Shown one piece after another: positions 36,890 to 54,261 of a stretch of DNA of 64,000 nt. The position numbers and the translations under genes were made by a program. The stretch is from NCBI GenBank assembly GCA_054600435.1, contig BAAIJX010000032.1, positions 124,001 through 188,000 of the forward strand. Reading direction: 5' to 3'. Source of the stretch: Neophaeotheca triangularis. Its lineage: Eukaryota. Under the pieces are notes generated by a model. The model made no database searches. It was not told the DNA's origin and saw only the letters and a program-made list of their open reading frames with translations. Positions within the stretch are counted from its first letter, which is position 1. Each line of letters starts with the position of its first letter.

Positions 36890-39231
36890 ATGGGTTGTAG
36901 CTTTCTCGTAACGCAAAGTATGAATTCGAATGTTGAATGTAGCAAGTGTTCCTCTTGTGCAATGATAGCAGTCTCAAGGGCTTTAGTTCTAGACATGTTT
37001 GGGTAGAATACTAAGGTACCTTACAATTAATGCTATTTGAATCGATGATGGTCTTTTCGTGAGCGGGTAGGGGAGCAACCCAACCCAGCAGTGGCAGTGC
37101 CAGGACCGGTTCAACTTCGGCAGACTTTGAGTGCGTGCACGACGGTCCAAGCTTGAGGATACAAGAAAACCTCAACTTTCGAATTCGCGACCTGCACTCC
37201 AAACCATCAACCTCTACAACCACCACCACTTCCGCCAATTCTTTTCAATAGCAACCTTCTTGTGGTACTCTTCAGTCATGCCATACTCCAGCATGTAGTA
37301 GCTGACTGATAGCAATGGTAAGCACCGCTCCCGTCTCTTCAACTCACCTCTGGGGATGAAATCGCAACAACCGCAATCAAACTAGAGTCTTTGACCTCTC
37401 CGGAGGACTGAAACTGTACTTGCACGTCAGTCTGATAGTCGACCTCACCGCAGCATTTGAAAAGGTTACGAGTGTCCGCGCTGTCGCTAATGCCGATATC
37501 TAGGTCTTGACCATGAACACAATGCTATGAGAGGCTTGGCCTAGTGCCACTAAAGACGACACCACGAGCCTATCCTGGTCTTTTCTCCCAAGGGGTGGAC
37601 TAGATCCTCGTGGGACCACATGAAAGACGTGAGTACATCCTTTCCATCCCCACCTCACCTCAAACCACCTCATATGATGAACATTTCGTTTATATACGCT
37701 GGAAATTACCGACTGAGACATTTGTCGCTGGCGAAAACAAATGGCTAAATCTGATCCCTCCCTATCAATTGCAACTGCTGTCACGAAGAACTATCTTCTG
37801 GACATCTGCTGATATGCGTTCGCAACAGGTTGCTAGCAGTCAAGACGACAGACAGTGTTGCTGCCCGTCACGTGTTACCGGTATGCAGGTATCGCTCCTT
37901 GCCCCCACGGCACAGCCACCTGGTAAGCAACCTTCACCCTCCTCACCCCTTGCATCTGATGAAGCGGCACTGGGCTCCGACTCAAGTCATGACCGGATAT
38001 GCCATTTTGCGACAGGCCTAGAAAACCTCGTCCACTGATGCGAGTAACTGGTCGAAATAAGTGTGATCAACATGTCTGCACTCCTCGCTAACGCCTTGCG
38101 TCTCCAGGGCACACACTCGATCAAGGACGTAGTTGAATCGGTCCGCCATGACGCTCCCCATGAATACGCAAAGTAAGTTGCTTCTCTGCCTTTGCCGTCT
38201 TCGCCAATATTACATGATGATCCTTTAAGATGACGAGTCTTATCTGGCCTTGCCAATGCGGACACAACTTTTACTACCATTCATGCAAACCCTGATCACA
38301 CTTGCACCTCCAACTCTATAGAGTTTCATTGAGTTGACAGACAGCTCACTGACTTTCGCGCAGGGTACATCCTACCTCCTCAGCATTCAGCCCATTGAGC
38401 TTGCCTACATGATGATACGACTTTACCAAAAGACAAGCATATGTCCAAGCTCTTTGACCGGAGCGGAGACGAGAACTGTCATGTCTGATTGGCATCTCAT
38501 ACATACATCTTGCCATCGATGTTACCAACGCTCTTACTGACTCGGTCAGTGGACGCAGAGCTTGCGCATGGTGAGCCTCTCGACAGGCGGGCACCCATTG
38601 TGGTTGCATACTCCAATCAACTCGCAGGAGTCTTTGGTATGTACACACACTCTTTTCCATTAACACCCTTAGCATGATGACTTCATACAATCACGACGGT
38701 CGACATAGCAGACTAAAAGTCTGTATTGATGAGATGGCCCTTGACCGGGCCTATTTGCACTGATCTCTTCTATTCGCGAAATCTCAGCTTGCTTTCCGTT
38801 CTACACGATTCGGGCCAGCGCTGACTGCAACATTCAGACAATAACCACCGTTCCGTCACTCGCGAGGTGAGGGCTGTTCTTGCCCATGCTGTTTCGTGGG
38901 TACCAATTTCGGTGGCCAAACTTTCCTCTGGCACATTGTGGCTGCGCTTCGTGTCAGGGGGTGCTTTTTGTGATTTGGGACTTTGTTGTATGTGAAGCGT
39001 GGAGGTTGAGATGACAAGCGAAGGGTGTTACGTCTCGTGCGATGCGTAAGGCATGTCGAGAGGGCTTTGGTATCATTCATCTTCCGAACCATCACGGCGT
39101 GACCCTTTTTCGCGGTGGTAGAAGTAAAAGAATCCCGTATACACTCCATAACACCAACGCTTCAACCCAAGCAATTAAGATCGCACCTCCCACGATATCC
39201 AGTCATAATGCTGCAGCCGCCCTGCCCTCGC

Positions 39232-42829: not shown

Positions 42830-43622
42830 GGTAAAGAGATTTGAAAAGGAGGGAGAGAAAGAGAGAGAGCAAGAGTGAGAGAGGGATGTTCTGGGAGGGA
42901 ATAACAGCTTGCCCTACCTTTTTGTATTGGATGCCCGGGGAGAATCAGGGACGAACTCAAAACCTTCCGACTTGCATCGTGTCCGGATTGACCATTATTG
43001 TCATAGCTGTAAGAGGGTAAGCAACGGATCTCCGACGGGTATGCGTAGTAATCCGATCGGGCATTGAATTCCAGATCTACTGAGGATGAAGTTGTTGTTC
43101 TGTTCTCCAGGTGGGGAGATCTCGAGAGCGACCAACCCGACCACCTTTCGGATGTCCATGGATGTGATTGTAGCTCACATCTTTGAGGTGATGAGGCAGT
43201 CGACAGAGCCAAGGCGAGGTTAAGGCCTTTGTCGAGAGAACGTCCCAAGGAAGGTTGACCGAGCACAGGCAAACCCCACGCCATGTCATTGCCGACCCGA
43301 CCCCATGATGCTGTCCCCTCGGGCACGTTCACCTGGGCAAGGTACCTTAACCTTGAACACAGCTATCACGAGGAACACCTACTGTAGGTAGGTAGATACG
43401 CCATTACAGCAACCGATCGTCTACCACGAAACCCTTGAAAGATCTCAAGTGCTCGCCGACAACACTGGAGCTTCCTCTCCTCGCAAACCCGGGCCACTCC
43501 AGCAGCACCTAGCCGCGAAACGGCTTGGCCTGCGACTGCTAGCTTGGCGCTCTGACTGGCAAGGACATTACCTTATTGTTGTTGTACCTCCTCTAAACCT
43601 CCACCAACAAAGTATCACAACC

Positions 43623-45365
43623 ATGGCAGATCAGCAATCCACAGAGCCAGACGAGCCGCCTGTCGCGGCACTAGTCGACGAAAAGGACAAACAGAATCTC
43701 ACCACCGAGCCCGAACCGTCTTCTGCGAGCACCGAGAACAGCCCTCCGCCTTCTGCCAGCACTACGACGCACCCTCCTACCACTTCACCCCTCTCACCAC
43801 ACACTCCCAGGAAGACATCAGGTAAATCCGTCGAAGAGTACTACACAAACCGACCGCGATTCGACAAGCTAGGCAACAAGCTACCAGACAGAACGCACGG
43901 CGCCATGTCGTCTGTCTACGGGAAGAGCAAGATAAGCCTGCCAGGAGATCTCGGACCAAACGATCCAAGGCGGCCAAAGTCGCCAGCACCTGCAAACATG
44001 CCTGGTGATCTCGGTCCTAACGATCCCCGCAGACCGAGGAGCACCAACTCGTCTCCCGTCCCTTCTAGTCACTCGCGCAAGGCTAGTGATCCGGAGGGCA
44101 TGTTGACTGAGGAGGGGGAGAGAATTATGAAGGATCCCAAACAGCCAAAGCAGGAGGAAGAGAAGAGTAAGGACAGTGACGTTGATGGTGATACCGACAA
44201 TGAAGGTGTCAAGCGTGGCAGAGGACGGATACGCCCCGAACCCGGTAGGACGACTTCGGGGAAAGCTATCAACGTTCGATCTGACAGTGAGGATTCTGTG
44301 CGGCAAACAAAGCCGGATCCGACGAAAGGCGAGTCTCTTTTGACGTGGAAGGGTGATCCGAAGATTAAAGTTACGCCTCCATCCGAGAAGAAGCGGGTTC
44401 ACCCAAGCACTTCGTTTGATTTCGCGCCTTCTTCGACTGGCACGCCCCTTGATAGTGATGAGGAGTCGCACTCTGAGCTTCGTGCCGCGCAGAAGCTATC
44501 CCTTACGACGTCCGCTATTCATAGCACACCATCCGCGCATCGTGCGCTTCGCCAGATCATTCGAGGCGATTATGCTCATTTCCAGCGTGAAGCAGAGGAA
44601 GGTCGGAAGCGTCAACGCATGTATCTTGTCGCCACTGATATTTCTCCCGAGGCCGAGTATGCGCTCGAGTGGACGATTGGCACGGTGTTGCGGGATGGGG
44701 ATACCTTGTTTGCCGTCTACGCTGTGGATGAAGAGAACGTTGGCGGTGAGGGTGGGGTGGAGGTTGGTCACGGCGCAGAATCTGTTCGCGACACTGCTGC
44801 GATTATTCGAGGTTTGCCTGCTACCAATGCACCGCCTCCTTCTCCCGGACCGAGCCCGCTTTCGAGGTCTGCCGTGGGCAGTATCAACGACAATCGTAGC
44901 CGCAGCCGTGGACCCGCGGGAACTTCACAATCGCATGCCGAGGCGGAGCGCCGTAAAGCGATCGAAGCAGTAACTGAGCGCTGCATCCGGCTTCTCCGCA
45001 AGACCCGTCTGCAGGTGCGTGTGGTAGTGGAAGTCTTTCACTGTAAATCGCCGCGCCATATGATTACCGAAGTCATCGATTTTCTCTCGCCAACGCTGGT
45101 GGTCATTGGAAGTCGTGGTCGCAACAGCGTCAAGGGTGTGCTTTTGGGTAGCTTCAGTAATTACTTGGTTACGAAGAGTTCGGTGCCGGTTATGGTTGCG
45201 CGGAAGAAGTTGCGAAAGCATAGCAAGACTGACAAGAGGAATAGAGATGGTACCAGTGTGCCGTACACGGGGACTGGCAGGACCGGGCGATTCAGCAACG
45301 TCATTGAAGCGCCGAGGGGCAAGGGGTTGAGGGTTGATAGTTGGGACAAGGTGGGAATTGATTGA
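43623..45365 (+). CDS. Universal stress protein (Usp) domain protein
   Basis: YLVATDISPEAEYALEWTIGTVLRDGD and VVIGSRGRNSVKGVLLGSFSNYLVTKSSVPVMVAR, preceded by a long disordered N-terminus. Confidence 0.88.
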   Translation: MADQQSTEPDEPPVAALVDEKDKQNLTTEPEPSSASTENSPPPSASTTTHPPTTSPLSPHTPRKTSGKSVEEYYTNRPRFDKLGNKLPDRTHGAMSSVYGKSKISLPGDLGPNDPRRPKSPAPANMPGDLGPNDPRRPRSTNSSPVPSSHSRKASDPEGMLTEEGERIMKDPKQPKQEEEKSKDSDVDGDTDNEGVKRGRGRIRPEPGRTTSGKAINVRSDSEDSVRQTKPDPTKGESLLTWKGDPKIKVTPPSEKKRVHPSTSFDFAPSSTGTPLDSDEESHSELRAAQKLSLTTSAIHSTPSAHRALRQIIRGDYAHFQREAEEGRKRQRMYLVATDISPEAEYALEWTIGTVLRDGDTLFAVYAVDEENVGGEGGVEVGHGAESVRDTAAIIRGLPATNAPPPSPGPSPLSRSAVGSINDNRSRSRGPAGTSQSHAEAERRKAIEAVTERCIRLLRKTRLQVRVVVEVFHCKSPRHMITEVIDFLSPTLVVIGSRGRNSVKGVLLGSFSNYLVTKSSVPVMVARKKLRKHSKTDKRNRDGTSVPYTGTGRTGRFSNVIEAPRGKGLRVDSWDKVGID

Positions 45366-47407: not shown

Positions 47408-47545
47408 CGACACCTTACTCAGGGGTTCGCCGCTGATCGTAGCATTGCACCTTGAGGTGGATTCTTACCTGTGGAATTCGAACTCGACCCCCGCAAGAAA
47501 TTAGCGAGGCTACAGCAGCATGTGCATAACAGTAGGCTAACGTGG
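47408..47545 (-). pseudogene. Degenerate tRNA-Ser relic with canonical-position intron and candidate GT-AG insert in the acceptor stem
   Basis: On the minus strand: anticodon stem TTAGC/GCTAA, loop CT-ACT, ~23-nt insert, long variable arm, GAGTTCGAATTCCAC, then AG|GTAAGA..55 nt..AAG|GTGTCG. The 5' half is not clearly recognisable. Confidence 0.5.
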
Positions 47546-47623
47546 CTGGTACAAGATTAGGATTCCAGTTAGGAATATATACAGCAATCCCGAGGGTCGT
47601 CGTTCAATACAACATCAACTCCA

Positions 47624-47782
47624 GGCATCTTGGCGGAGCGGTTAACGCGGTATGCCTCGCAACGCCCACAATATTCTGCAGATCCCGAGACTAACAAACT
47701 CGAAGTCAGCCTGCTAGCACTCTATTGAGTCTCAGCCTAGCTGATCCCTTCGGGGGCGTGTGTTCGAATCACACAGATGTCG
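47624..47782 (+). tRNA. tRNA-Ser(GCT) with one spliceosomal-type intron (47650-47705) and one canonical tRNA intron (47717-47738)
   Basis: Spliced sequence GGCATCT TG GCG GAGCGGTTAA CGC G|TCAGC CT GCT A|A GCTGA TCCCTTCGGGGGC GTGTG TTCGAAT CACAC AGATGTC G. All stems pair (one G-U), it has the Ser long variable arm and G73, and T7 follows. Confidence 0.88.
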
Positions 47783-47783
47783 A

Positions 47784-47790
47784 TTTTTTT
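47784..47790 (+). terminator. Pol III oligo-T terminator
   Basis: TTTTTTT begins 2 nt after the discriminator base. Confidence 0.75.
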
Positions 47791-50102
47791 GCCGTTTCCA
47801 TGCAAGAAGATGCTCCTGCTCGTGAACAAGTATCCGATGTGAAGGTAGAAGAAGTTGGTATGAATAGCAAAAGATGAAATCCGCCAAGACTTTGAGCTAG
47901 GATCTCAGTTGGTTCAGGAGAGCAAAGACATGAGCTACTCGCATTTCCGCAGCGAAACGTTGTTGCTTTGAGTAGATGGCTCTGAGCTAGCAAGCTACAA
48001 CGAGCAGCCGTAGGCATTGAACCGGACTCTTCATGGCTTGGATATCGACGACGGTGCGCATGCTTCAAGCTGGTGCCCCGTTGCCCCGGAAGGTGTCTGC
48101 AGCGGAGTCGTGTCGTCTCAAAGTAATCCCGTTGCATGTCTCTCCATGCTGACCGGAAGATGTAAGGAAGAGGCACCAAGATGGCCAAGATCTACAGGCT
48201 CTCCGGGCGCTGCGTTGGGAAGAGACTACACGAGTAGAAGTTGTGGCCTTGCAAAGTCGGTTTGGCTACGAGGTTGTGCCATGCTTCTCATATGACGGAG
48301 TTTGAGGCAGCATTCTCATAGGCTGCGGAGGGTGCGTTTGCCTCTCAAGGCGCTTTCTCTTGGGCTCAGGTTTCGCCCATGCCGTAAACAGCGTCTAGTC
48401 CGGGACAGTCAGTTGCAGCGCAAGCGAGCCGGCATGAAAAGACATGCTTGGACAACGCCACGATGCCGATATCGCGATATCGCACACACGCCGCTCAATA
48501 TACCTCGATTGTGGGGCGAATGGCTTCTTCATTAGGGCGCTGCTGGTCGACGCCGTAGAGAAGCCATGTGCAGGCGTGTAGTGACTAGATTCAGGTGCAG
48601 TTGTCTCGGCGATTGAGAGCCTGCATTGCTGGGGTGTTTTGGTGATCCGGCTGCAGCTCGAGGCGATTCAACAGTATGCTTTTACAATCCTGTCTCCGAG
48701 CCACCTTGGTGAACAATGTAAGCGCAGTTGTCTGAGTAAAGTCGGTGGCAATGCGGTTGTTGTAGCTCAAGACATTCCCATAACCATGCGAACGTACTAG
48801 TATCTACAGTGCGAATGCGACAACTTATTAGCTCGACCAGACCCTTGGGGCCCTTGATACTTTTTGAGCCATAGTCGCACATTGGCGACCTGAAACTACG
48901 CCCCCTGCGACACAAGGCTGCTCACCCCGCCGGATAGCTACTGTAGGTCTTTCGACGCAGGTTTGGTTCTATCGCACGTGGCGTCCGAGCACAGCGAGGC
49001 CGAGAATTTCGCTCTAGCCGCCTAGGACAGAATTTTGGGGCGCCTGAGCTGATGTCTTTCACTAGTAACTGTCCGGTAATGTGTCAGAGCTGCAGCCCAG
49101 TCACGGGCCAGATCTTCTAGACGCTGGAACCTGAAGGTATTTCCCTAGAGCCTTAGATGTCTCGAGCTGCAAGTTGATATCGCTCCGGTATTTATGCCAG
49201 GGAGTCAGCACCGCGCTTTGAGAGCGAGCCTTGTAGTCTCTCCCAGCGGCTCAGGTGGGCTGAGCGCTCGCAATAGCCTAGGGTTATGAGGCTGGGCTTG
49301 GACTCTTGCTGCCAGATGAGCTGGCGCTTCGCAGGTGTAGGAGCTTACGAAGCACGCCCGGGGCGTAGCATTACGAGCCAACAAGCCCACTTCAAGTTTT
49401 CACCATCCATCGAATAGGTATTCTTCCAAGCATCAGTATGTCTGATTTCGGGACTGTCGTTTCATTCGTCTAGCATCAGCACTGGTCATCAAGAGAATTT
49501 GCTGGCGAAGATTATAGCTGCATGGGTCAACCATCGCCGTAAGGGTGTCCCATAGCCGCCTGGACTTCGAGCACGGCCCGAATCTGCGAGCTGCATGTAG
49601 TCGTGAGCGAGCAAACTGCAGCATATAGACGTAGGTATGGCACCGGACCTCCATGTCCGGAGCTGGATTATCGGCGTGCAAAAGATTGCATGCTCAGAGC
49701 TGGCGCCTCGGTAAGGATCTACAGCAACAGGGAATGTCGTTCGGGGATGAAAGGCTTTCTATAGCAACCGGAGAGAAAACGCAGATTAAATAGAAACAGC
49801 CAAGATCTACAAGCTCGCCGAAAGTCGCGAACTCCCCGAACGTTGCGTTGGCAGACGGATTGTAATTTGTGCCTACGGAAGCCGCTACGAGGTGGGTTTG
49901 ACTGTGAGATTCCAAATCAATCTGCCCACGGAAGGAGCTTCGGGGCAGCCTCCGCAGCGCTCGCAATTAGCGTCTATCTTCCTAAAGCTCTCTCGTTCAA
50001 AGTTTGACACTTTCTACGTAGTGGGCTGCTATAAAAATTCAAGTATTATATACAAACAGCAATTTTAATGTTCCATCGAATTGGCTTGTAATCCAAGCGC
50101 AA

Positions 50103-50324
50103 GACAACGTGGCGGAGGTAATTCTACACCACACCACCATAGATTGGTCGTCCAAGTTCTAACACTCTACCTCAGTGGTTAACGCGGTATGTGTTACCGA
50201 ATCCAGATTCATCATTGAATCATACGCTAACAACCACAAAGCCAGCCTGCTACTACCCCTCAATATAAGAGGTTGAGCTCAGCTGGTTCCTTCGGGAGCG
50301 TGTGTTCGAATCACATCGTTGTCG
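50103..50324 (+). tRNA. tRNA-Ser(GCT) with two spliceosomal-type introns (50118-50175, 50187-50241) and one canonical tRNA intron (50253-50280)
   Basis: Spliced sequence GACAACG TG GCG GAG|TGGTTAA CGC G|CCAGC CT GCT A|A GCTGG TTCCTTCGGGAGC GTGTG TTCGAAT CACAT CGTTGTC G. The acceptor stem is perfect and the cloverleaf is 81 nt. Confidence 0.88.
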
Positions 50325-50335
50325 CAGCAACATTC

Positions 50336-50341
50336 TTTTTT
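50336..50341 (+). terminator. Pol III oligo-T terminator
   Basis: T6 begins 12 nt after the tRNA 3' end. Confidence 0.65.
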
Positions 50342-50830
50342 GCGAACAATCCATGTTGTACAGACAGCTATCTTTCTTTTTCTTTTTGCTAAAAAGTAGT
50401 GAACCAAGACAATTTTGTATAGAATACTACTTGTAAAGGTACATTCTGGCAGTTGAAAACATATACATTCTGGGCGTCGCTGTCGAGAAAGGCATTGTAA
50501 GACTCAGCAGGGCAGTTCTTGTGAAGCTCGCTCCCCCCTTGGTGTTCTAAGAAGACCTTATCGTTCATCAGCCTAAACACCGCTATTTCTTCGATACTCC
50601 TCGCTCGTTATTGCGACTCCTAGATAGTCGATCAAGAGCCGGAGACATCAACTGCGAAGTCGTTCTGATCAAGACCTGCTCTGGTTCCCTTCCGTATTGA
50701 TTGTGGACTCTGGTGAGTATATGTTATCAAGGTACGACTACCCAGGGCCCATTGCTAGTTGGTACCGGATGAGTCTCCGCAAGGCCAACTAACCCAAGCC
50801 CTCCCAAAAGCCACCGAGTGAGGCATAGGT

Positions 50831-52152
50831 ATGGCCGTTCCACTCGATACGAGCGGTAAACTGCACCACTGGCCCGCAATGTATCCCTTCGTCGCCATCC
50901 ACAGTTGGCCGCCTCAGGGGTAGCCGCTTCAGGAAGGTCTCATCCAAGTCAAACCCGGCGATCACGGGTTCATTGGTGGCGTCGACTCAAAGAGACAACT
51001 CGTCAAGGTTGAACTCGCCAAAACCATTCTGCCCGGTCGTCCTGTAGTAGGTATGGTCTACCACGCCGCACTCCAGATTGGCAGCAAACGCAGTGTCACG
51101 GAACCCTGGATCATTGAAGTCACCGAGCCTCCCAGCCCATCGATTACCCTCACCCCCTTCACTGGCCGAATCCTGCTCAACACCATCGAAGGCCTGATAC
51201 GAGCCTTTGAGCAGACTACGACTGGCCCCATCGTCCTATGTATCTCGACACCGCCCTGAATGATTCAGCGCAGCGCAAGAGACTACTGAATGCCATCCTT
51301 TCCGGCATGCGAGACGCCAGCAAACCCCTTTTTGATCAGCTGAACACCGGAAAATTCGACCTCGCGGACATTGTTCGCCTTGGTGGGAAGCCAGACAAGC
51401 GTGTCGGCATCTACATGATTGTGTACCACTTTCCCAGAAACGAAGATGGAAGTCAGCGATTGCCCGAAGTGTACGTCGGCAGTACATCTGTAAACTTCGC
51501 CTCACGATGGAATCAGCATTGCACAGCGATCGACAATCCCATTGAGCCCCAGCAAGAGCGCAATCACCACTACCAGAGCGCACGCCAGGCCACCAGTCGT
51601 TGACTCATCCCACTGTCTCTTCTCCCCGGGCTGAAGCAGGGCGACGAGGAAATGAAACTGGCAGAGCAAATATTTGTCTGTCTGTTCCAAACGGCTTCTC
51701 GTAGGCTACTCAGCTATAGGGCGGATGACTTTGTGGGCCCGGGAGCACCAGAAATGTCACAAGACGATGATCCGAGTGAAGATCTTGTCGCACGGATACA
51801 GCGGTATTTTCTCGACAAAGAGTGCGCTGTTTTCTTGGGGAAGCTGGCGAGAACGGTCTTTGATAGCACAGGCTGGCCTGGGGCATTCCGCCGCTTGCCC
51901 AGTAGCAGAGCCGGCGCTTTCGGCGCGGCCAGTGGGCTCAATTGGTCGAGCCCGGCCATGGAGATGCAGCACTCTCGCACCACCTTGATCCGGACCCTGT
52001 CGAAATTGCACCTTCGATCGAGGCCAGCGTTCGCAGAATTCTCCGATAACAAGGACTCGTATGTGGTCCCAAAATCTAGCAGCGGCTCTTGCTTCGTCCT
52101 TCTTCTTCGCAAGGTCACGCCGGTCGCTACGTGTTCGATGAACGCACCTTGA
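50831..52152 (+). pseudogene. GIY-YIG nuclease-domain pseudogene
   Basis: RVGIYMIVY...EVYVGST...SRWNQH...HY, then an in-frame TGA (51601-51603) followed by LIPL...KLAEQIFVCLF. There is also an upstream TAG and a frameshift near 51237. Confidence 0.65.
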
Positions 52153-52786: not shown

Positions 52787-54261
52787 CTACTCGGTCTTCG
52801 CAGCAGTCTCCTTCTTCGGTCTCGAAGCGAGCTTTCTAGGCTTCTTCTTCTCCACGGGCGCACCATTCGTCTGCGCTGCGCCTTCCGCCGGCTTCTGGCT
52901 CGTTTCCTTCTCCCCCTGCTTCTCACCCGACGCAGTCTTAGCTGGTGCAGCAGGAGCCTTCTTCTGCGCCGGTTTCTGTGGGGTAGCAGCACCGCTCCCC
53001 GCCTGCGATCCAGTCTTCTTAGGAGTTTGTCCCAGCTTCTTCGGTGGCGGTCTCTTCGGTGTCGCAGCGGGGCTTTCAGATTTACCATCCTCACCACCTT
53101 GCGTCGTGGTCGTAGCAGTCGACTGTGCCATGGACGGTTTCCTAGGTTGTGTAGGCCTTCTCTTGGCTGGCAGCGACTTGGCCTTTTGCTTTTGCGGTGC
53201 CTGCTTCTTGTTCGCACCCTCTTCTTCCTCCACAAGGAACTGCCCATCCTCTGACGTTCCATTATTCACGGCACCGACATCGTTTGGACAAGCACTCATG
53301 ACAACTACAACGTCTCGTTCGGCTCGGAGACGCACGTAATCGCCTTCTCTGCAGTCCGGCGCGGCAAAGGAGAGATCTCCAGAATCGGCCCAAGGTACGT
53401 CTGTGAAAGTGTTAGTCAAGTCTCACGCACTGCAGTCGGAAGAAACTCACTCATGAACAAATTCAGAGGTGCCGGCACACTATTGATGGTAACTTCGGCA
53501 CCCACGCCCTTTGCACCCTTCAAACCTGCCCTCTCATTCAACTCCTTCAACGCGAGTACGAGATTCTCAGCGCAACTGCCATGTTCCTCCCAATTCTCAA
53601 CACCAAGCTGCCTGTACCTGAAAGGGTCGCAAGCCGATATGACAGTATCGTGAACGCCAGACGAAGAATCCTCTACGAGCGTCAACATAGGTTGCCTCAA
53701 ATTGCTGTAGAAAATGTCGTTGACTCGCGGACGCAGATGCAAGGACTGCGCGTGCGTGGCCGGCATCGACATGTACTCCATTGGTGGTCCGTTGGGGGCA
53801 TTTTGTGCGTTCCATGCTTGGTACCCAGCGTAAAGGGAGCCACTATAGCCACTGCCGGTTAGTGCTGGGGAGAAACGATTAGTACATGAGCAAGCTCCCA
53901 TTGAGATGACTGAGTACCTACCAGAGAACCCTGCTGCCCCAACCGGAGTCTTGGAGAACGCTTGCAACTGTTCCATGTAGGATTTGTTTGGATCTGGTTT
54001 ATGCTGGGTCTTGACTGTCAGGAACACCAAACATGACTGGCTGATATATCATGCCAGCAAATACGCACCGTTGAGGTAAAGGCAGACACCGTGTCGGTTG
54101 CGGTCTGCGGAACATAGGAGGTAAAGGCCTTTCCACTTGGAAAATAACTCCCCCATGTTCTCGAGTCTTGCTTTCGTTGTTCAGCGTTTTGTTCGGTCTC
54201 GCCAGTCTTTTTCCCTCCTCTCCATCCAAGTGACGGAATGTACGAGCTCCAACCGCTAGCT

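What the first reader, a model, noticed from the sequence alone, without database searches (positions are those of the whole stretch)
50103..50324. tRNA-Ser(GCT) gene B in four exons: two spliceosomal-type introns plus a canonical tRNA intron
Seen: exon 1 GACAACGTGGCGGAG (50103-50117); intron GTAATT..TTCTAAC..CTCAG (50118-50175, 58 nt); an 11-nt exon TGGTTAACGCG; intron GTATGT..GCTAAC..AAAG (50187-50241, 55 nt); an 11-nt exon CCAGCCTGCTA; a 28-nt canonical intron; and the 3' exon ending CGTTGTC-G. Two independent GT/branch/AG inserts whose exact removal gives a fully paired 81-nt serine cloverleaf are very unlikely by chance. Inference: a hybrid processing system in which the spliceosome must remove D-arm introns before the fold-dependent tRNA endonuclease can act. 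It may have arisen by reverse splicing of mRNA-type introns into abundant tRNA precursors and could couple AGY-codon decoding to spliceosome activity. This is the best candidate for an undescribed system in the window.
Basis: partly seen in the sequence, partly recalled or inferred. Interest (0 to 1): 0.97.

Follow-up and report, generated by a model that had tools for sequence, protein, structure and literature searches.

The report
Serine tRNA gene with mRNA-type introns
A fungal gene for a serine transfer RNA is interrupted by two introns of the kind normally found in protein-coding genes plus one ordinary tRNA intron, so this RNA appears to need both of the cell's splicing machineries, which textbooks treat as separate.

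Summary
Removing 50118-50175, 50187-50241 and 50253-50280 in silico leaves an 81-nt tRNA-Ser(GCU). A diverged paralogue 2.5 kb upstream (47624-47782) carries a GT..CTAAC..AG insert at the same 26/27 site. The two genes differ at 11 of 81 exon positions, yet both keep 24 of 24 stem pairs, four through changes on both sides. So both are selected as tRNAs in the spliced register.

The three inserts match local mRNA introns in length, 5' site and branch-to-acceptor distance. The two at 26/27 show no bulge-helix-bulge motif.

In public runs, one RNA-library contig of a close relative covers -8 to +2 of gene B with all introns. Its 12 differences all lie in introns. A second contig joins exon 1 to exon 2 exactly at the predicted junction and keeps the other two introns. 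That contig has only 8 letters on one side and comes from a library of unknown type.

ARAGORN and Rfam miss or mis-call both genes. Ten literature searches found no tRNA among spliceosomal-intron hosts.

Best reading: a Pol III pre-tRNA spliced first by the spliceosome, then by the tRNA endonuclease. Splicing of intron 2, lariats and spliceosome dependence remain untested.

The parts
50103..50324 (+). Gene B: tRNA-Ser(GCU) gene in four exons (222 nt genomic, 81 nt mature)
   Evidence: ARAGORN after in-silico removal. (T-arm/acceptor scan). (a relative's RNA-library contig spans 50095-50326).
50103..50117 (+). Exon 1: acceptor 5' strand, U8, G9, D-stem 5' strand and first D-loop bases. It carries the first 8 of 11 A-box positions.
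   Evidence: The A-box consensus is recalled, not from a call.
50118..50175 (+). Insert 1: 58-nt spliceosomal-type intron in the D loop. GTAATT, CTAAC at 50159-50163 (branch A at 50162), then CAG.
   Evidence: In one search it is absent exactly at these borders in the X2/X3 contig and present with 3 substitutions in the X1 contig. BHB register 7 of 10.
50176..50186 (+). Exon 2 (11 nt): rest of the D loop, D-stem 3' strand and G26
50187..50241 (+). Insert 2: 55-nt spliceosomal-type intron between positions 26 and 27. GTATGT, CTAAC at 50227-50231 (branch A at 50230), then AAG.
   Evidence: Same site as the gene A insert. BHB register 2 of 10. 7 substitutions in the relative, none in GT, CTAAC or AG.
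50242..50252 (+). Exon 3 (11 nt): anticodon-stem 5' strand and anticodon loop up to A37 (anticodon GCT)
50253..50280 (+). Canonical tRNA intron (28 nt) at 37/38. Intron bases -5 to -3 (AGC) pair with the anticodon, and the 3' splice site sits in a 3-nt bulge.
   Evidence: ARAGORN intron position 37-38. (fold constrained to the cloverleaf).
50281..50324 (+). Exon 4: A38, anticodon-stem 3' strand, long variable arm (4-bp stem with a TTCG loop), T arm carrying the B box, acceptor 3' strand and discriminator G
50336..50341 (+). T6 run: likely Pol III terminator, 11 nt after the gene. No run of 3 or more T lies inside the gene.
   Evidence: Null: 16% of 222-nt window segments lack TTT.
50047..50063 (+). 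Upstream TATATACA (at -56) followed by CAGCAAT (at -46): candidate extragenic promoter element shared with gene A
   Evidence: TATATACA occurs twice in the window on both strands, each time upstream of one of the two genes.
47624..47782 (+). Gene A: paralogous tRNA-Ser(GCU) gene in three exons (47624-47649, 47706-47716, 47739-47782)
   Evidence: Mis-called as tRNA-Asn(att) with a 68-nt intron by ARAGORN -i on the raw window.
47650..47705 (+). Gene A insert: 56-nt spliceosomal-type intron at 26/27. GTATGC, CTAAC at 47691-47695 (branch A at 47694), then AAG.
   Evidence: BHB register 3 of 10. Its interior is no more like insert 2 of gene B than shuffles are (p 0.57), while the last 16 nt are 12 of 16 identical.
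47717..47738 (+). Gene A canonical intron (22 nt) at 37/38, with the same AGC-anticodon pairing and 3-nt bulge
47784..47790 (+). T7 run directly after gene A: likely Pol III terminator
47576..47588 (+). Upstream TATATACA (at -48) overlapping CAGCAAT (at -42) of gene A

Best explanation
Gene B, and its paralogue gene A, is a functional nuclear tRNA-Ser(GCU) gene of a filamentous ascomycete. The Aspergillus-type snoRNAs in the window suggest a eurotiomycete.

Proposed pathway:
1. RNA polymerase III transcribes the gene as one short precursor running through all three introns.
2. The spliceosome removes the two GU..CUAAC..AG introns, in the D loop and at position 26/27, as it does the mRNA-type introns of fungal U6 snRNA. 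The 11-nt exon between them forces the two removals to be sequential.
3. Only then can the D arm and the tRNA body fold.
4. The tRNA splicing endonuclease and the Trl1-type ligase remove the ordinary 37/38 intron.

Shown here: the gene anatomy; selection on the spliced cloverleaf; intron-like evolution (exons fixed, introns drifting, signals kept); a discrete precursor-sized RNA-library contig; and a form that lacks intron 1 exactly.

Inferred: the enzyme, the lariat, removal of intron 2, the order of steps and Pol III transcription.
For: 1. In-silico removal at the GT/AG borders gives ARAGORN tRNA-Ser(gct) calls with a 37/38 intron for both genes.

2. Genes A and B differ at 11 of 81 mature positions, 10 of them in stems. 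Four pairs changed on both sides and two on one side. Both genes keep 24 of 24 pairs, including pair 27:43, which abuts the 26/27 insert.

3. All three inserts start with GT, end with AG and carry CTAAC with the branch A 11-13 nt from the end. This combination occurs in 30 of 383,662 random placements in the window. The joint chance for gene B is about 4e-8.

4. They resemble local mRNA introns. The intron at 53401-53450(-) joins the two halves of a DUF1989 Pfam match (profile positions 33-136 and 132-168). It is 50 nt long, with GTGAGT, GACTAAC with the A 11 nt from the end, and CAG. Other ORF-restoring candidates are 47-70 nt with GTAAGT or GTATGT and branch distances of 10-13 nt.

5. The BHB register at the true junctions scores 2 of 10 (insert 2) and 3 of 10 (gene A insert). 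The null mean is 3.66.

6. One search, run X1 (an RNA library): one 232-nt contig covers 50095-50326, from -8 to +2 of the gene, with all introns. All 12 of its 12 differences lie in introns and none in the 81 exon bases (hypergeometric p 0.002). None lies in GT, CTAAC or AG.

7., runs X2 and X3 (one sample): a 159-nt contig aligns to 50174-50324 and carries the same 9 intron differences. It is preceded by 8 letters identical to exon 1 bases 50108-50115. It therefore reads exon 1 joined to exon 2 at the predicted junction, with intron 2 and the 37/38 intron retained, and it ends at the discriminator base. Whether this contig is RNA or DNA, it shows insert 1 to be a discrete unit bounded exactly by GT and AG.

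8. Pol III features: no run of 3 or more T inside either gene, a T7 or T6 run just downstream, and a shared upstream TATATACA..CAGCAAT found nowhere else in the window.

9. In both genes the 37/38 intron pairs AGC with the anticodon and places the 3' splice site in a 3-nt bulge.

10. Precedent: spliceosomal introns in Pol III-transcribed fungal U6 genes, up to four per gene (PMC5855946, section 14, passages read).
Against: - No read or contig shows removal of intron 2 or the mature tRNA.
- The intron-1-less form rests on one low-depth contig (depth 2.05) from one sample filed twice. Only 8 letters lie on the exon 1 side, below the tool's own 31-letter rule for bridging. It was not listed as a joint, and the library type is a guess ('RNA?'). 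It could be a DNA allele or paralogue without intron 1.
- X1 is an RNA library, but the tool warns that DNA can be present. The rest of the 2.8-kb stretch had no cover that could serve as a silent control.
- The 5' site of insert 1, GTAATT, lacks the usual G at +5. Insert 2 and the gene A insert end in AAG, not YAG.
- Insert 1 splits the A box. The distance from A box to B box is about 190 bp, so internal-promoter function is uncertain.
- Insert 1 scores 7 of 10 in the BHB register, a score reached by 3.7% of random placements. An endonuclease route for that insert is not excluded.
- The genome is not held, so an uninterrupted tRNA-Ser(GCU) gene may exist elsewhere.
- Only one related taxon could be compared. 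The metagenome scan gave no fungal relative.
Confidence: 0.7

Rival explanations
1. The D-region inserts are removed by a protein endonuclease (the tRNA splicing endonuclease acting on a BHB-like fold, as in archaea, Cyanidioschyzon and nucleomorphs) and not by the spliceosome. On this reading the GT/CTAAC/AG features are incidental.
For: Multiple and non-canonical tRNA introns handled by BHB recognition are well documented. PMC3978253: passages read. PMC9602550: only the start of the abstract, seen in the listing. Insert 1 scores 7 of 10 in the BHB register.
Against: Insert 2 and the gene A insert score 2 and 3 of 10, at or below the null mean of 3.66. Three inserts all carry GT, CTAAC at 11-13 nt and AG (about 6e-12 jointly), and these signals survive where the interiors have diverged to random. 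Their 55-58-nt lengths match local mRNA introns. The BHB register I used is recalled from the literature, not taken from a call.
Confidence: 0.07
2. The genes are decaying or non-functional tRNA relics into which intron-like DNA has been inserted. The inserts are not removed productively, and a normal tRNA-Ser(GCU) gene elsewhere does the decoding.
For: The genome is not held, so other copies cannot be excluded. The A box of gene B is split. No mature product has been seen.
Against: Four compensatory double changes, with 24 of 24 pairs kept in both paralogues. The relative shows 12 of 12 differences in introns and none in the exons. Terminators and a shared upstream motif are kept. There is a precursor-sized contig in an RNA library and a form lacking insert 1 exactly.
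Confidence: 0.07
3. The spliceosome does remove the inserts, but on a longer Pol II transcript such as a non-coding host RNA. RNase P and RNase Z then release the tRNA, so Pol III is not involved.
For: Splicing is normally coupled to Pol II. The split A box and the long A-to-B-box distance in gene B argue against a classical internal promoter. The upstream TATA-like motif at -48/-56 could serve either polymerase.
Against: The relative's RNA-library contig is confined to -8..+2 of the gene. T7 and T6 runs follow the genes directly, and no TTT occurs inside them. This is only weak evidence: 25% and 16% of random segments also lack TTT. No Pfam-bearing ORF lies between or around the genes on the same strand at 46.4-50.9 kb.
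Confidence: 0.1

Closest known systems
mRNA-type (spliceosomal) introns in fungal U6 snRNA genes (Tani and Ohshima 1989, 1991; Canzler et al. 2016; as summarised in PMC5855946 section 14, passages read)
   Same: A small, structured, Pol III-transcribed RNA gene is interrupted by short introns with canonical 5' site, branch site and 3' site that are otherwise not conserved. Several introns can sit in one gene (up to four in U6). Reverse splicing is the proposed origin.
   Different: The host here is a tRNA, which is not part of the spliceosome, so closeness to the catalytic centre cannot explain the insertion. The same transcript also carries an endonuclease-type intron, so two unrelated splicing systems must act on one RNA. 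The review's list of non-coding hosts (U6, U2, U5, U1, rRNA) contains no tRNA.
Spliceosomal introns in U3 snoRNA, U1/U2/U5 snRNA and ascomycete rDNA (PMC5832005 introduction; PMC5855946)
   Same: GT-AG introns in non-coding RNA genes of fungi, removed by the pre-mRNA machinery.
   Different: The snRNAs U1, U2 and U5 and yeast U3 are, from my recollection, Pol II transcripts, although the abstract of PMC5832005 calls U3 Pol III-transcribed. rDNA is Pol I. [quoted passage not shown]
Canonical eukaryotic tRNA intron at 37/38, removed by TSEN and the Trl1 ligase (PMC10275265, PMC12530127; passages read)
   Same: The third intron of gene B (50253-50280) and the second of gene A sit at 37/38. They pair with the anticodon and put the 3' site in a 3-nt bulge.
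   Different: The two other inserts lie outside the anticodon loop, lack that architecture and carry spliceosomal signals. These papers describe tRNA introns and spliceosomal introns as unrelated classes, with the spliceosomal class found in Pol II transcripts.
Multiple or non-canonical BHB introns in tRNA genes of archaea, Cyanidioschyzon merolae and nucleomorphs (PMC3978253, passages; PMC9602550, abstract start only, in the listing)
   Same: tRNA genes with two or three introns, including D-arm positions.
   Different: Those introns are defined by a bulge-helix-bulge fold and are cut by the tRNA endonuclease. Here the BHB register fails for two of the three inserts, and GT/CTAAC/AG signals are present instead.
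   Same: The same kind of claim: a spliceosomal-looking intron in a nuclear tRNA gene.
   Different: A different kingdom, isotype and genome. It is an unchecked AI note and I did not test it.

Membership tests
U2-type spliceosomal (GU-AG) intron | GU at the 5' end within a 5' splice-site consensus | tested here: met
   GTAATT (insert 1; weak, no G at +5), GTATGT (insert 2) and GTATGC (gene A). The relative has GTATGC in insert 2.
U2-type spliceosomal (GU-AG) intron | Fungal branch-site motif CTAAC a short distance upstream of the 3' end | tested here: met
   CTAAC with the branch A 13, 11 and 11 nt from the end. The local mRNA intron at 53401-53450(-) has GACTAAC at 11 nt.
U2-type spliceosomal (GU-AG) intron | AG at the 3' end, usually YAG | tested here: met
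   CAG (insert 1). AAG (insert 2 and the gene A insert), so AG is present but -3 is not a pyrimidine in two of the three.
U2-type spliceosomal (GU-AG) intron | Length within the host's mRNA intron range | tested here: met
   55-58 nt, against 47-70 nt for ORF-restoring candidates in the window. Only one of those is confirmed by a split Pfam match.
U2-type spliceosomal (GU-AG) intron | Exact excision at the GU/AG borders in RNA | tested here: inconclusive
   Insert 1 is absent exactly at its borders in the X2/X3 contig. That contig has only 8 letters on one side, depth 2.05 and an unknown library type. Nothing is available for insert 2 or gene A.
U2-type spliceosomal (GU-AG) intron | Lariat intermediate and dependence on snRNPs | not testable with these tools
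   Needs branch-spanning reads, a debranching-enzyme mutant, or splicing mutants or inhibitors.
tRNA-Ser (class II tRNA), isoacceptor GCU | Cloverleaf with a long variable arm, anticodon GCU and discriminator G73 | tested here: met
   ARAGORN tRNA-Ser(gct), 81 nt. 24 of 24 pairs, including a 4-bp variable-arm stem with a TTCG loop, and a terminal G. That these are serine identity elements is recalled.
Canonical eukaryotic tRNA intron (TSEN substrate) | Position 37/38, anticodon-intron helix, and 3' splice site in a bulge | tested here: met
   ARAGORN places the intron at 37-38. The constrained fold pairs GCU with intron AGC at -5 to -3 and leaves a 3-nt bulge across the 3' site in both genes.
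BHB (bulge-helix-bulge) tRNA intron | Two 3-nt bulges holding the cut sites, separated by a 4-bp helix and flanked by helices | tested here: not met
   Register test at the true junctions: insert 2 scores 2 of 10 pairs, the gene A insert 3 of 10, and insert 1 scores 7 of 10 with a mismatch in the central helix. Null mean 3.66; 7 or more in 3.7% of placements. The register definition is recalled.
Pol III type-2 (tRNA) gene | Internal A and B boxes and a T-run terminator | tested here: inconclusive
   The B box (GTTCGAATC) and T7/T6 terminators are present, and there is no TTT inside either gene. The A box is intact in gene A but split after 8 of 11 positions in gene B. A shared upstream TATATACA may compensate. 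No transcription data show which polymerase acts.

The most novel reading that the evidence does not exclude
These would be the first spliceosomal introns described in nuclear tRNA genes. A Pol III pre-tRNA would then be an obligatory substrate of both the spliceosome and the tRNA endonuclease. Both copies in the window carry such introns, and standard tRNA finders miss or mis-call them. The whole supply of tRNA-Ser(GCU), the only decoder of AGC/AGU, in this fungal lineage may therefore depend on the spliceosome. The isoacceptor may also appear to be missing from automated annotations of related genomes.
Probability: 0.3. Interest if true: 0.92.

Novelty: new variant of a known kind. Interest (0 to 1): 0.8.

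Why it matters
Recent reviews and papers treat spliceosomal introns and tRNA introns as unrelated classes, with the spliceosomal class found in Pol II transcripts (PMC12530127 and PMC10275265; passages read). A tRNA that needs both machineries would break that separation.

It would add tRNA to the short list of non-coding hosts of spliceosomal introns. It would also provide a second Pol III substrate besides U6, and one that is not part of the spliceosome. That bears on how new introns arise, whether by reverse splicing into abundant RNAs or otherwise.

It would create a testable link between spliceosome capacity and the decoding of two serine codons.

There is a practical consequence too. ARAGORN and the Rfam tRNA model miss or mis-call these genes, so tRNA repertoires of related fungi may be annotated as incomplete.

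Tried and rejected
**Whole genome.** The window's genome is not held (an error reply). I could not count tRNA-Ser(GCU) copies or look for uninterrupted ones.

**Earlier findings.** Searches by sequence, place and words found nothing on this genome or on look-alikes. A two-word search gave one unrelated-genome lead.

**Metagenome scan.** I scanned with an anticodon-arm / 37-38 intron / T-loop pattern (read) and got 12 loci, none a fungal relative.
- Nine (L002-L005, L007-L011) have an uninterrupted 5' half directly upstream and look archaeal. That is my reading and was not tested.
- Two (L006, L012) show no tRNA 5' half.
- One (L001) is an AT-rich eukaryote-like contig with a different short D-loop insert.

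So there is no comparative series across fungi.

**Public runs.** In one search, no contig covered gene A or any other part of 47560-50030. This says nothing either way. The listing of runs held only three rows from two studies.

**Folding.** Unconstrained MFE folds of the precursors and intermediates did not reproduce the cloverleaf even for the mature sequences, so they are uninformative about folding order.

**Rfam.** At E up to 10 on 47500-50500, the only match was a chance 'ybhL leader' hit and no tRNA.

**Intron homology.** The interiors of the two 26/27 inserts are no more alike than shuffles. Common descent or independent gain at that site cannot be decided.

**T runs.** The absence of TTT inside the genes is only weakly unusual: 25% and 16% of random segments also lack it.

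**Literature.** Ten searches and passages from 12 papers yielded no spliceosomal intron in a tRNA gene. One search and one look-up failed on a too-short term. Canzler et al. 2016 (PMC4829304) is not held. Subscription journals are largely outside the library, so prior description cannot be excluded.
Full report
**1. The observation**

I removed 50118-50175 and 50187-50241 in a script. ARAGORN, run with introns allowed, then calls a tRNA-Ser(gct) with a 28-nt intron at 37/38. Removing 50253-50280 as well gives an 81-nt tRNA-Ser(gct). On the raw window, ARAGORN finds no tRNA in its default mode. With introns allowed it misses gene B and mis-calls the paralogue as 'tRNA-Asn(att)' with a 68-nt intron. 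The Rfam tRNA model gives no hit on 47500-50500 even at E up to 10.

An independent scan of both strands looked for a 5-bp T stem, a TTCRANN loop, a perfectly paired 7-bp acceptor stem and U8-R9, with up to 420 nt in between. It returns two hits in 64 kb: this gene and a second one at 47624-47782.

**2. The paralogue**

Gene A (47624-47782, same strand, 2.3 kb upstream) has one GT..AG insert (47650-47705, 56 nt) and a 22-nt 37/38 intron (47717-47738). Its insert sits at the same place as insert 2 of gene B, between positions 26 and 27.

The mature sequences differ at 11 of 81 positions, 10 of them in stems. Four base pairs changed on both sides and two on one side. Both genes keep all 24 stem pairs. 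One of the doubly changed pairs is 27:43, whose 5' member is the first base after the 26/27 insert. This is the signature of two genes that have both stayed under selection as tRNAs, read in the spliced register.

**3. What the inserts look like**

All three begin with GT and end with AG. Their 5' sites are GTAATT, GTATGT and GTATGC. All three carry CTAAC with the branch A 13, 11 and 11 nt from the 3' end. That combination occurs in 30 of 383,662 placements of frames of the same lengths over both strands of the window (7.8e-5), a count that includes the inserts themselves. With the 2-3 equivalent boundary placements allowed for, the two inserts of gene B give about 4e-8 and all three about 6e-12. 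The two inserts at 26/27 may not be independent.

The window's own mRNA introns look the same. The 50-nt candidate at 53401-53450(-) joins two ORFs whose Pfam DUF1989 matches are contiguous (profile positions 33-136 and 132-168). It reads GTGAGT, then GACTAAC with the A 11 nt from the end, then CAG. Other ORF-restoring candidates are 47-70 nt long, with GTAAGT or GTATGT and branch distances of 10-13 nt. Those come from a heuristic and are not individually verified.

The interiors of the two 26/27 inserts are no more alike than shuffles (p 0.57). Their last 16 nt are 12 of 16 identical, and both start with GTATG. So only the splice signals have been kept.

**4. Not endonuclease-type introns**

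I tested the bulge-helix-bulge register at the true junctions: a 4-bp central helix, two 3-nt bulges and flanking 3-bp helices. The register definition is recalled, not taken from a call. Insert 2 scores 2 of 10 possible pairs and the gene A insert 3 of 10, against a null mean of 3.66. Insert 1 scores 7 of 10 with a mismatch in the central helix, a level reached by 3.7% of random placements.

By contrast, the third intron of gene B and the second of gene A behave as ordinary tRNA introns. They are at 37/38. In a fold constrained to the cloverleaf, the anticodon GCU pairs with AGC at intron positions -5 to -3, and the 3' splice site lies in a 3-nt bulge in both genes.

**5. Public sequencing runs**

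One search with 50060-50350 listed three runs from two studies. I laid all three on 47560-50400 at 85% likeness.

- **X1**, a metatranscriptome RNA library kept as contigs, has a single 232-nt contig covering 50095-50326. That is 8 nt before to 2 nt after the tRNA, with all three introns. It differs from the window at 12 places, all in introns: 3 in insert 1, 7 in insert 2 and 2 in the 37/38 intron. None falls in the 81 exon bases (hypergeometric p 0.002). None falls in GT, CTAAC or AG. One change turns GTATGT into GTATGC, the 5' site of gene A.
- **X2 and X3** are one sample, with the library type a guess. They have a 159-nt contig whose letters 9-159 lie on 50174-50324 and carry the same 9 intron differences. 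Its first 8 letters are loose and are identical to 50108-50115, the end of exon 1 before its final AG. Exon 1 and insert 1 both end in AG, so the contig reads exon 1 joined to exon 2 at exactly the predicted junction. Insert 2 and the 37/38 intron are still present, and the contig stops at the discriminator base.

Caveats:
- The tool did not list this as a joint.
- Only 8 letters lie on one side, and the tool asks for 31.
- Depth is 2.05.
- The run may be DNA.

If it is RNA, it is a splicing intermediate. If it is DNA, it is an allele or copy that lacks insert 1 precisely. Either way, insert 1 is a discrete unit bounded by its GT and AG. The confinement of both contigs to the transcription unit favours RNA. 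Neither run shows removal of insert 2 or the mature tRNA.

**6. Transcription**

Neither gene contains a run of three or more T. A T7 run starts one base after gene A, and a T6 run starts 11 bases after gene B. The lack of TTT is only mildly unusual: 25% and 16% of random segments of the same lengths also lack it.

TATATACA occurs twice in the whole window on both strands, at -48 of gene A and -56 of gene B, each time followed by CAGCAAT. I read this as a shared upstream promoter element. Upstream TATA elements of fission-yeast tRNA genes are a recalled analogy. It could explain how gene B tolerates an A box split after 8 of 11 positions, and about 190 bp between A and B boxes.

The surroundings hold no Pfam-bearing ORF on the same strand between 46.4 and 50.9 kb. 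The neighbours are a Usp-domain ORF (43392-45365), a weak GIY-YIG ORF (51211-51603) and the DUF1989 gene on the other strand.

The organism is a fungus with Aspergillus-type C/D snoRNAs: Afu_300, Afu_513 and snR75 at 37670-38297.

**7. Mechanism proposed**

Pol III makes a precursor of about 230 nt. The spliceosome removes insert 1 and insert 2. With an 11-nt exon between them, the two cannot be committed at once, which fits an intermediate lacking only insert 1. The D arm and the tRNA body can then fold. The endonuclease, which measures from the folded body (established knowledge, recalled), cuts at 37/38, and the ligase seals the exons.

Steps shown: gene anatomy, selection, intron-type evolution, a precursor-sized contig, and the exact absence of insert 1 in one contig. 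Steps inferred: the enzyme, the lariat, the fate of insert 2, the order of events and the polymerase.

**8. Comparison with what is known**

The closest precedent is the mRNA-type introns of fungal U6 snRNA genes, which are Pol III transcripts. A single gene can carry up to four, with canonical signals and otherwise unconserved sequence, and reverse splicing is the proposed origin. The same review lists U2, U5, U1 and rRNA as further non-coding hosts, and no tRNA (PMC5855946, section 14, passages read). [quoted passage not shown]

Papers on tRNA processing from 2023 and 2025 describe spliceosomal and tRNA introns as distinct, unrelated classes (PMC10275265, one passage; PMC12530127, abstract and introduction passages). 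A 2014 review of tRNA introns does not contain the word stem 'spliceosom' at all (PMC4090602).

Ten full-text searches found no description of a spliceosomal intron in a tRNA gene. The library lacks most subscription journals, and Canzler et al. 2016 was not held, so this is absence of evidence only.

I did not test it.

**9. Verdict**

The spliceosomal nature of the inserts is well supported by anatomy and evolution and is suggested by one contig. The obligatory order, the origin and the regulatory coupling are untested.
- I file it as a new variant of a known kind: spliceosomal introns in Pol III-transcribed non-coding RNA genes, here in a tRNA and combined with an endonuclease intron.
- Confidence in the main explanation is 0.7, and interest is 0.8.

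Noticed in passing
window 47576-47588 and 50047-50063: TATATACA followed by CAGCAAT lies 48 and 56 nt upstream of the two tRNA genes. TATATACA occurs nowhere else in the window on either strand. It may be an upstream (TATA-type) promoter element for these genes.
   Followed up: partly
window 37670-38297 (+): Three box C/D snoRNA genes (Afu_300, Afu_513, snR75) lie within about 630 bp on one strand, all above Rfam gathering scores. They are probably a polycistronic or intron-hosted snoRNA cluster, and they point to an Aspergillus-like fungus.
   Followed up: no
window 47624-47782: ARAGORN with introns allowed labels gene A 'tRNA-Asn(att)' with a 68-nt intron at position 31. Automated annotation could carry this mis-call, with the correct ends but the wrong isotype.
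   Followed up: yes
L001:454-568 (metagenome contig, 33% G+C): This is a eukaryote-like tRNA-Ser(gct) gene with a 13-nt 37/38 intron and a further 19-21-nt insert in the D loop. The insert's borders are ambiguous, and one reading is a 21-nt GT..AG unit. ARAGORN calls tRNA-Ser(gct) after any of the three removals. It resembles the short non-canonical tRNA introns, or the ultrasmall spliceosomal introns, of nucleomorph genomes (the first is recalled; PMC4494063 passages, for the 18-23-nt introns). The next gene, at L001:580-683, is called 'tRNA-Pyl(cta)' with an intron at position 30 and is probably another mis-called interrupted tRNA.
   Followed up: partly
window 53401-53450 (-): A 50-nt GTGAGT..GACTAAC..CAG intron joins two ORFs that together cover a DUF1989 Pfam domain. 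I used it as the local mRNA-intron control.
   Followed up: partly
window 51211-51603 (+): This ORF has a GIY-YIG nuclease-domain match just under Pfam's cut-off (22.2 against 22.6 bits). It lies about 0.9 kb downstream of gene B.
   Followed up: no
L002-L005, L007-L011: Nine metagenome loci carry intron-containing tRNA-Ser(GCT)-like genes with the same anticodon-arm sequence as the fungal genes but an uninterrupted 5' half. They look archaeal by my reading, which was not tested.
   Followed up: no
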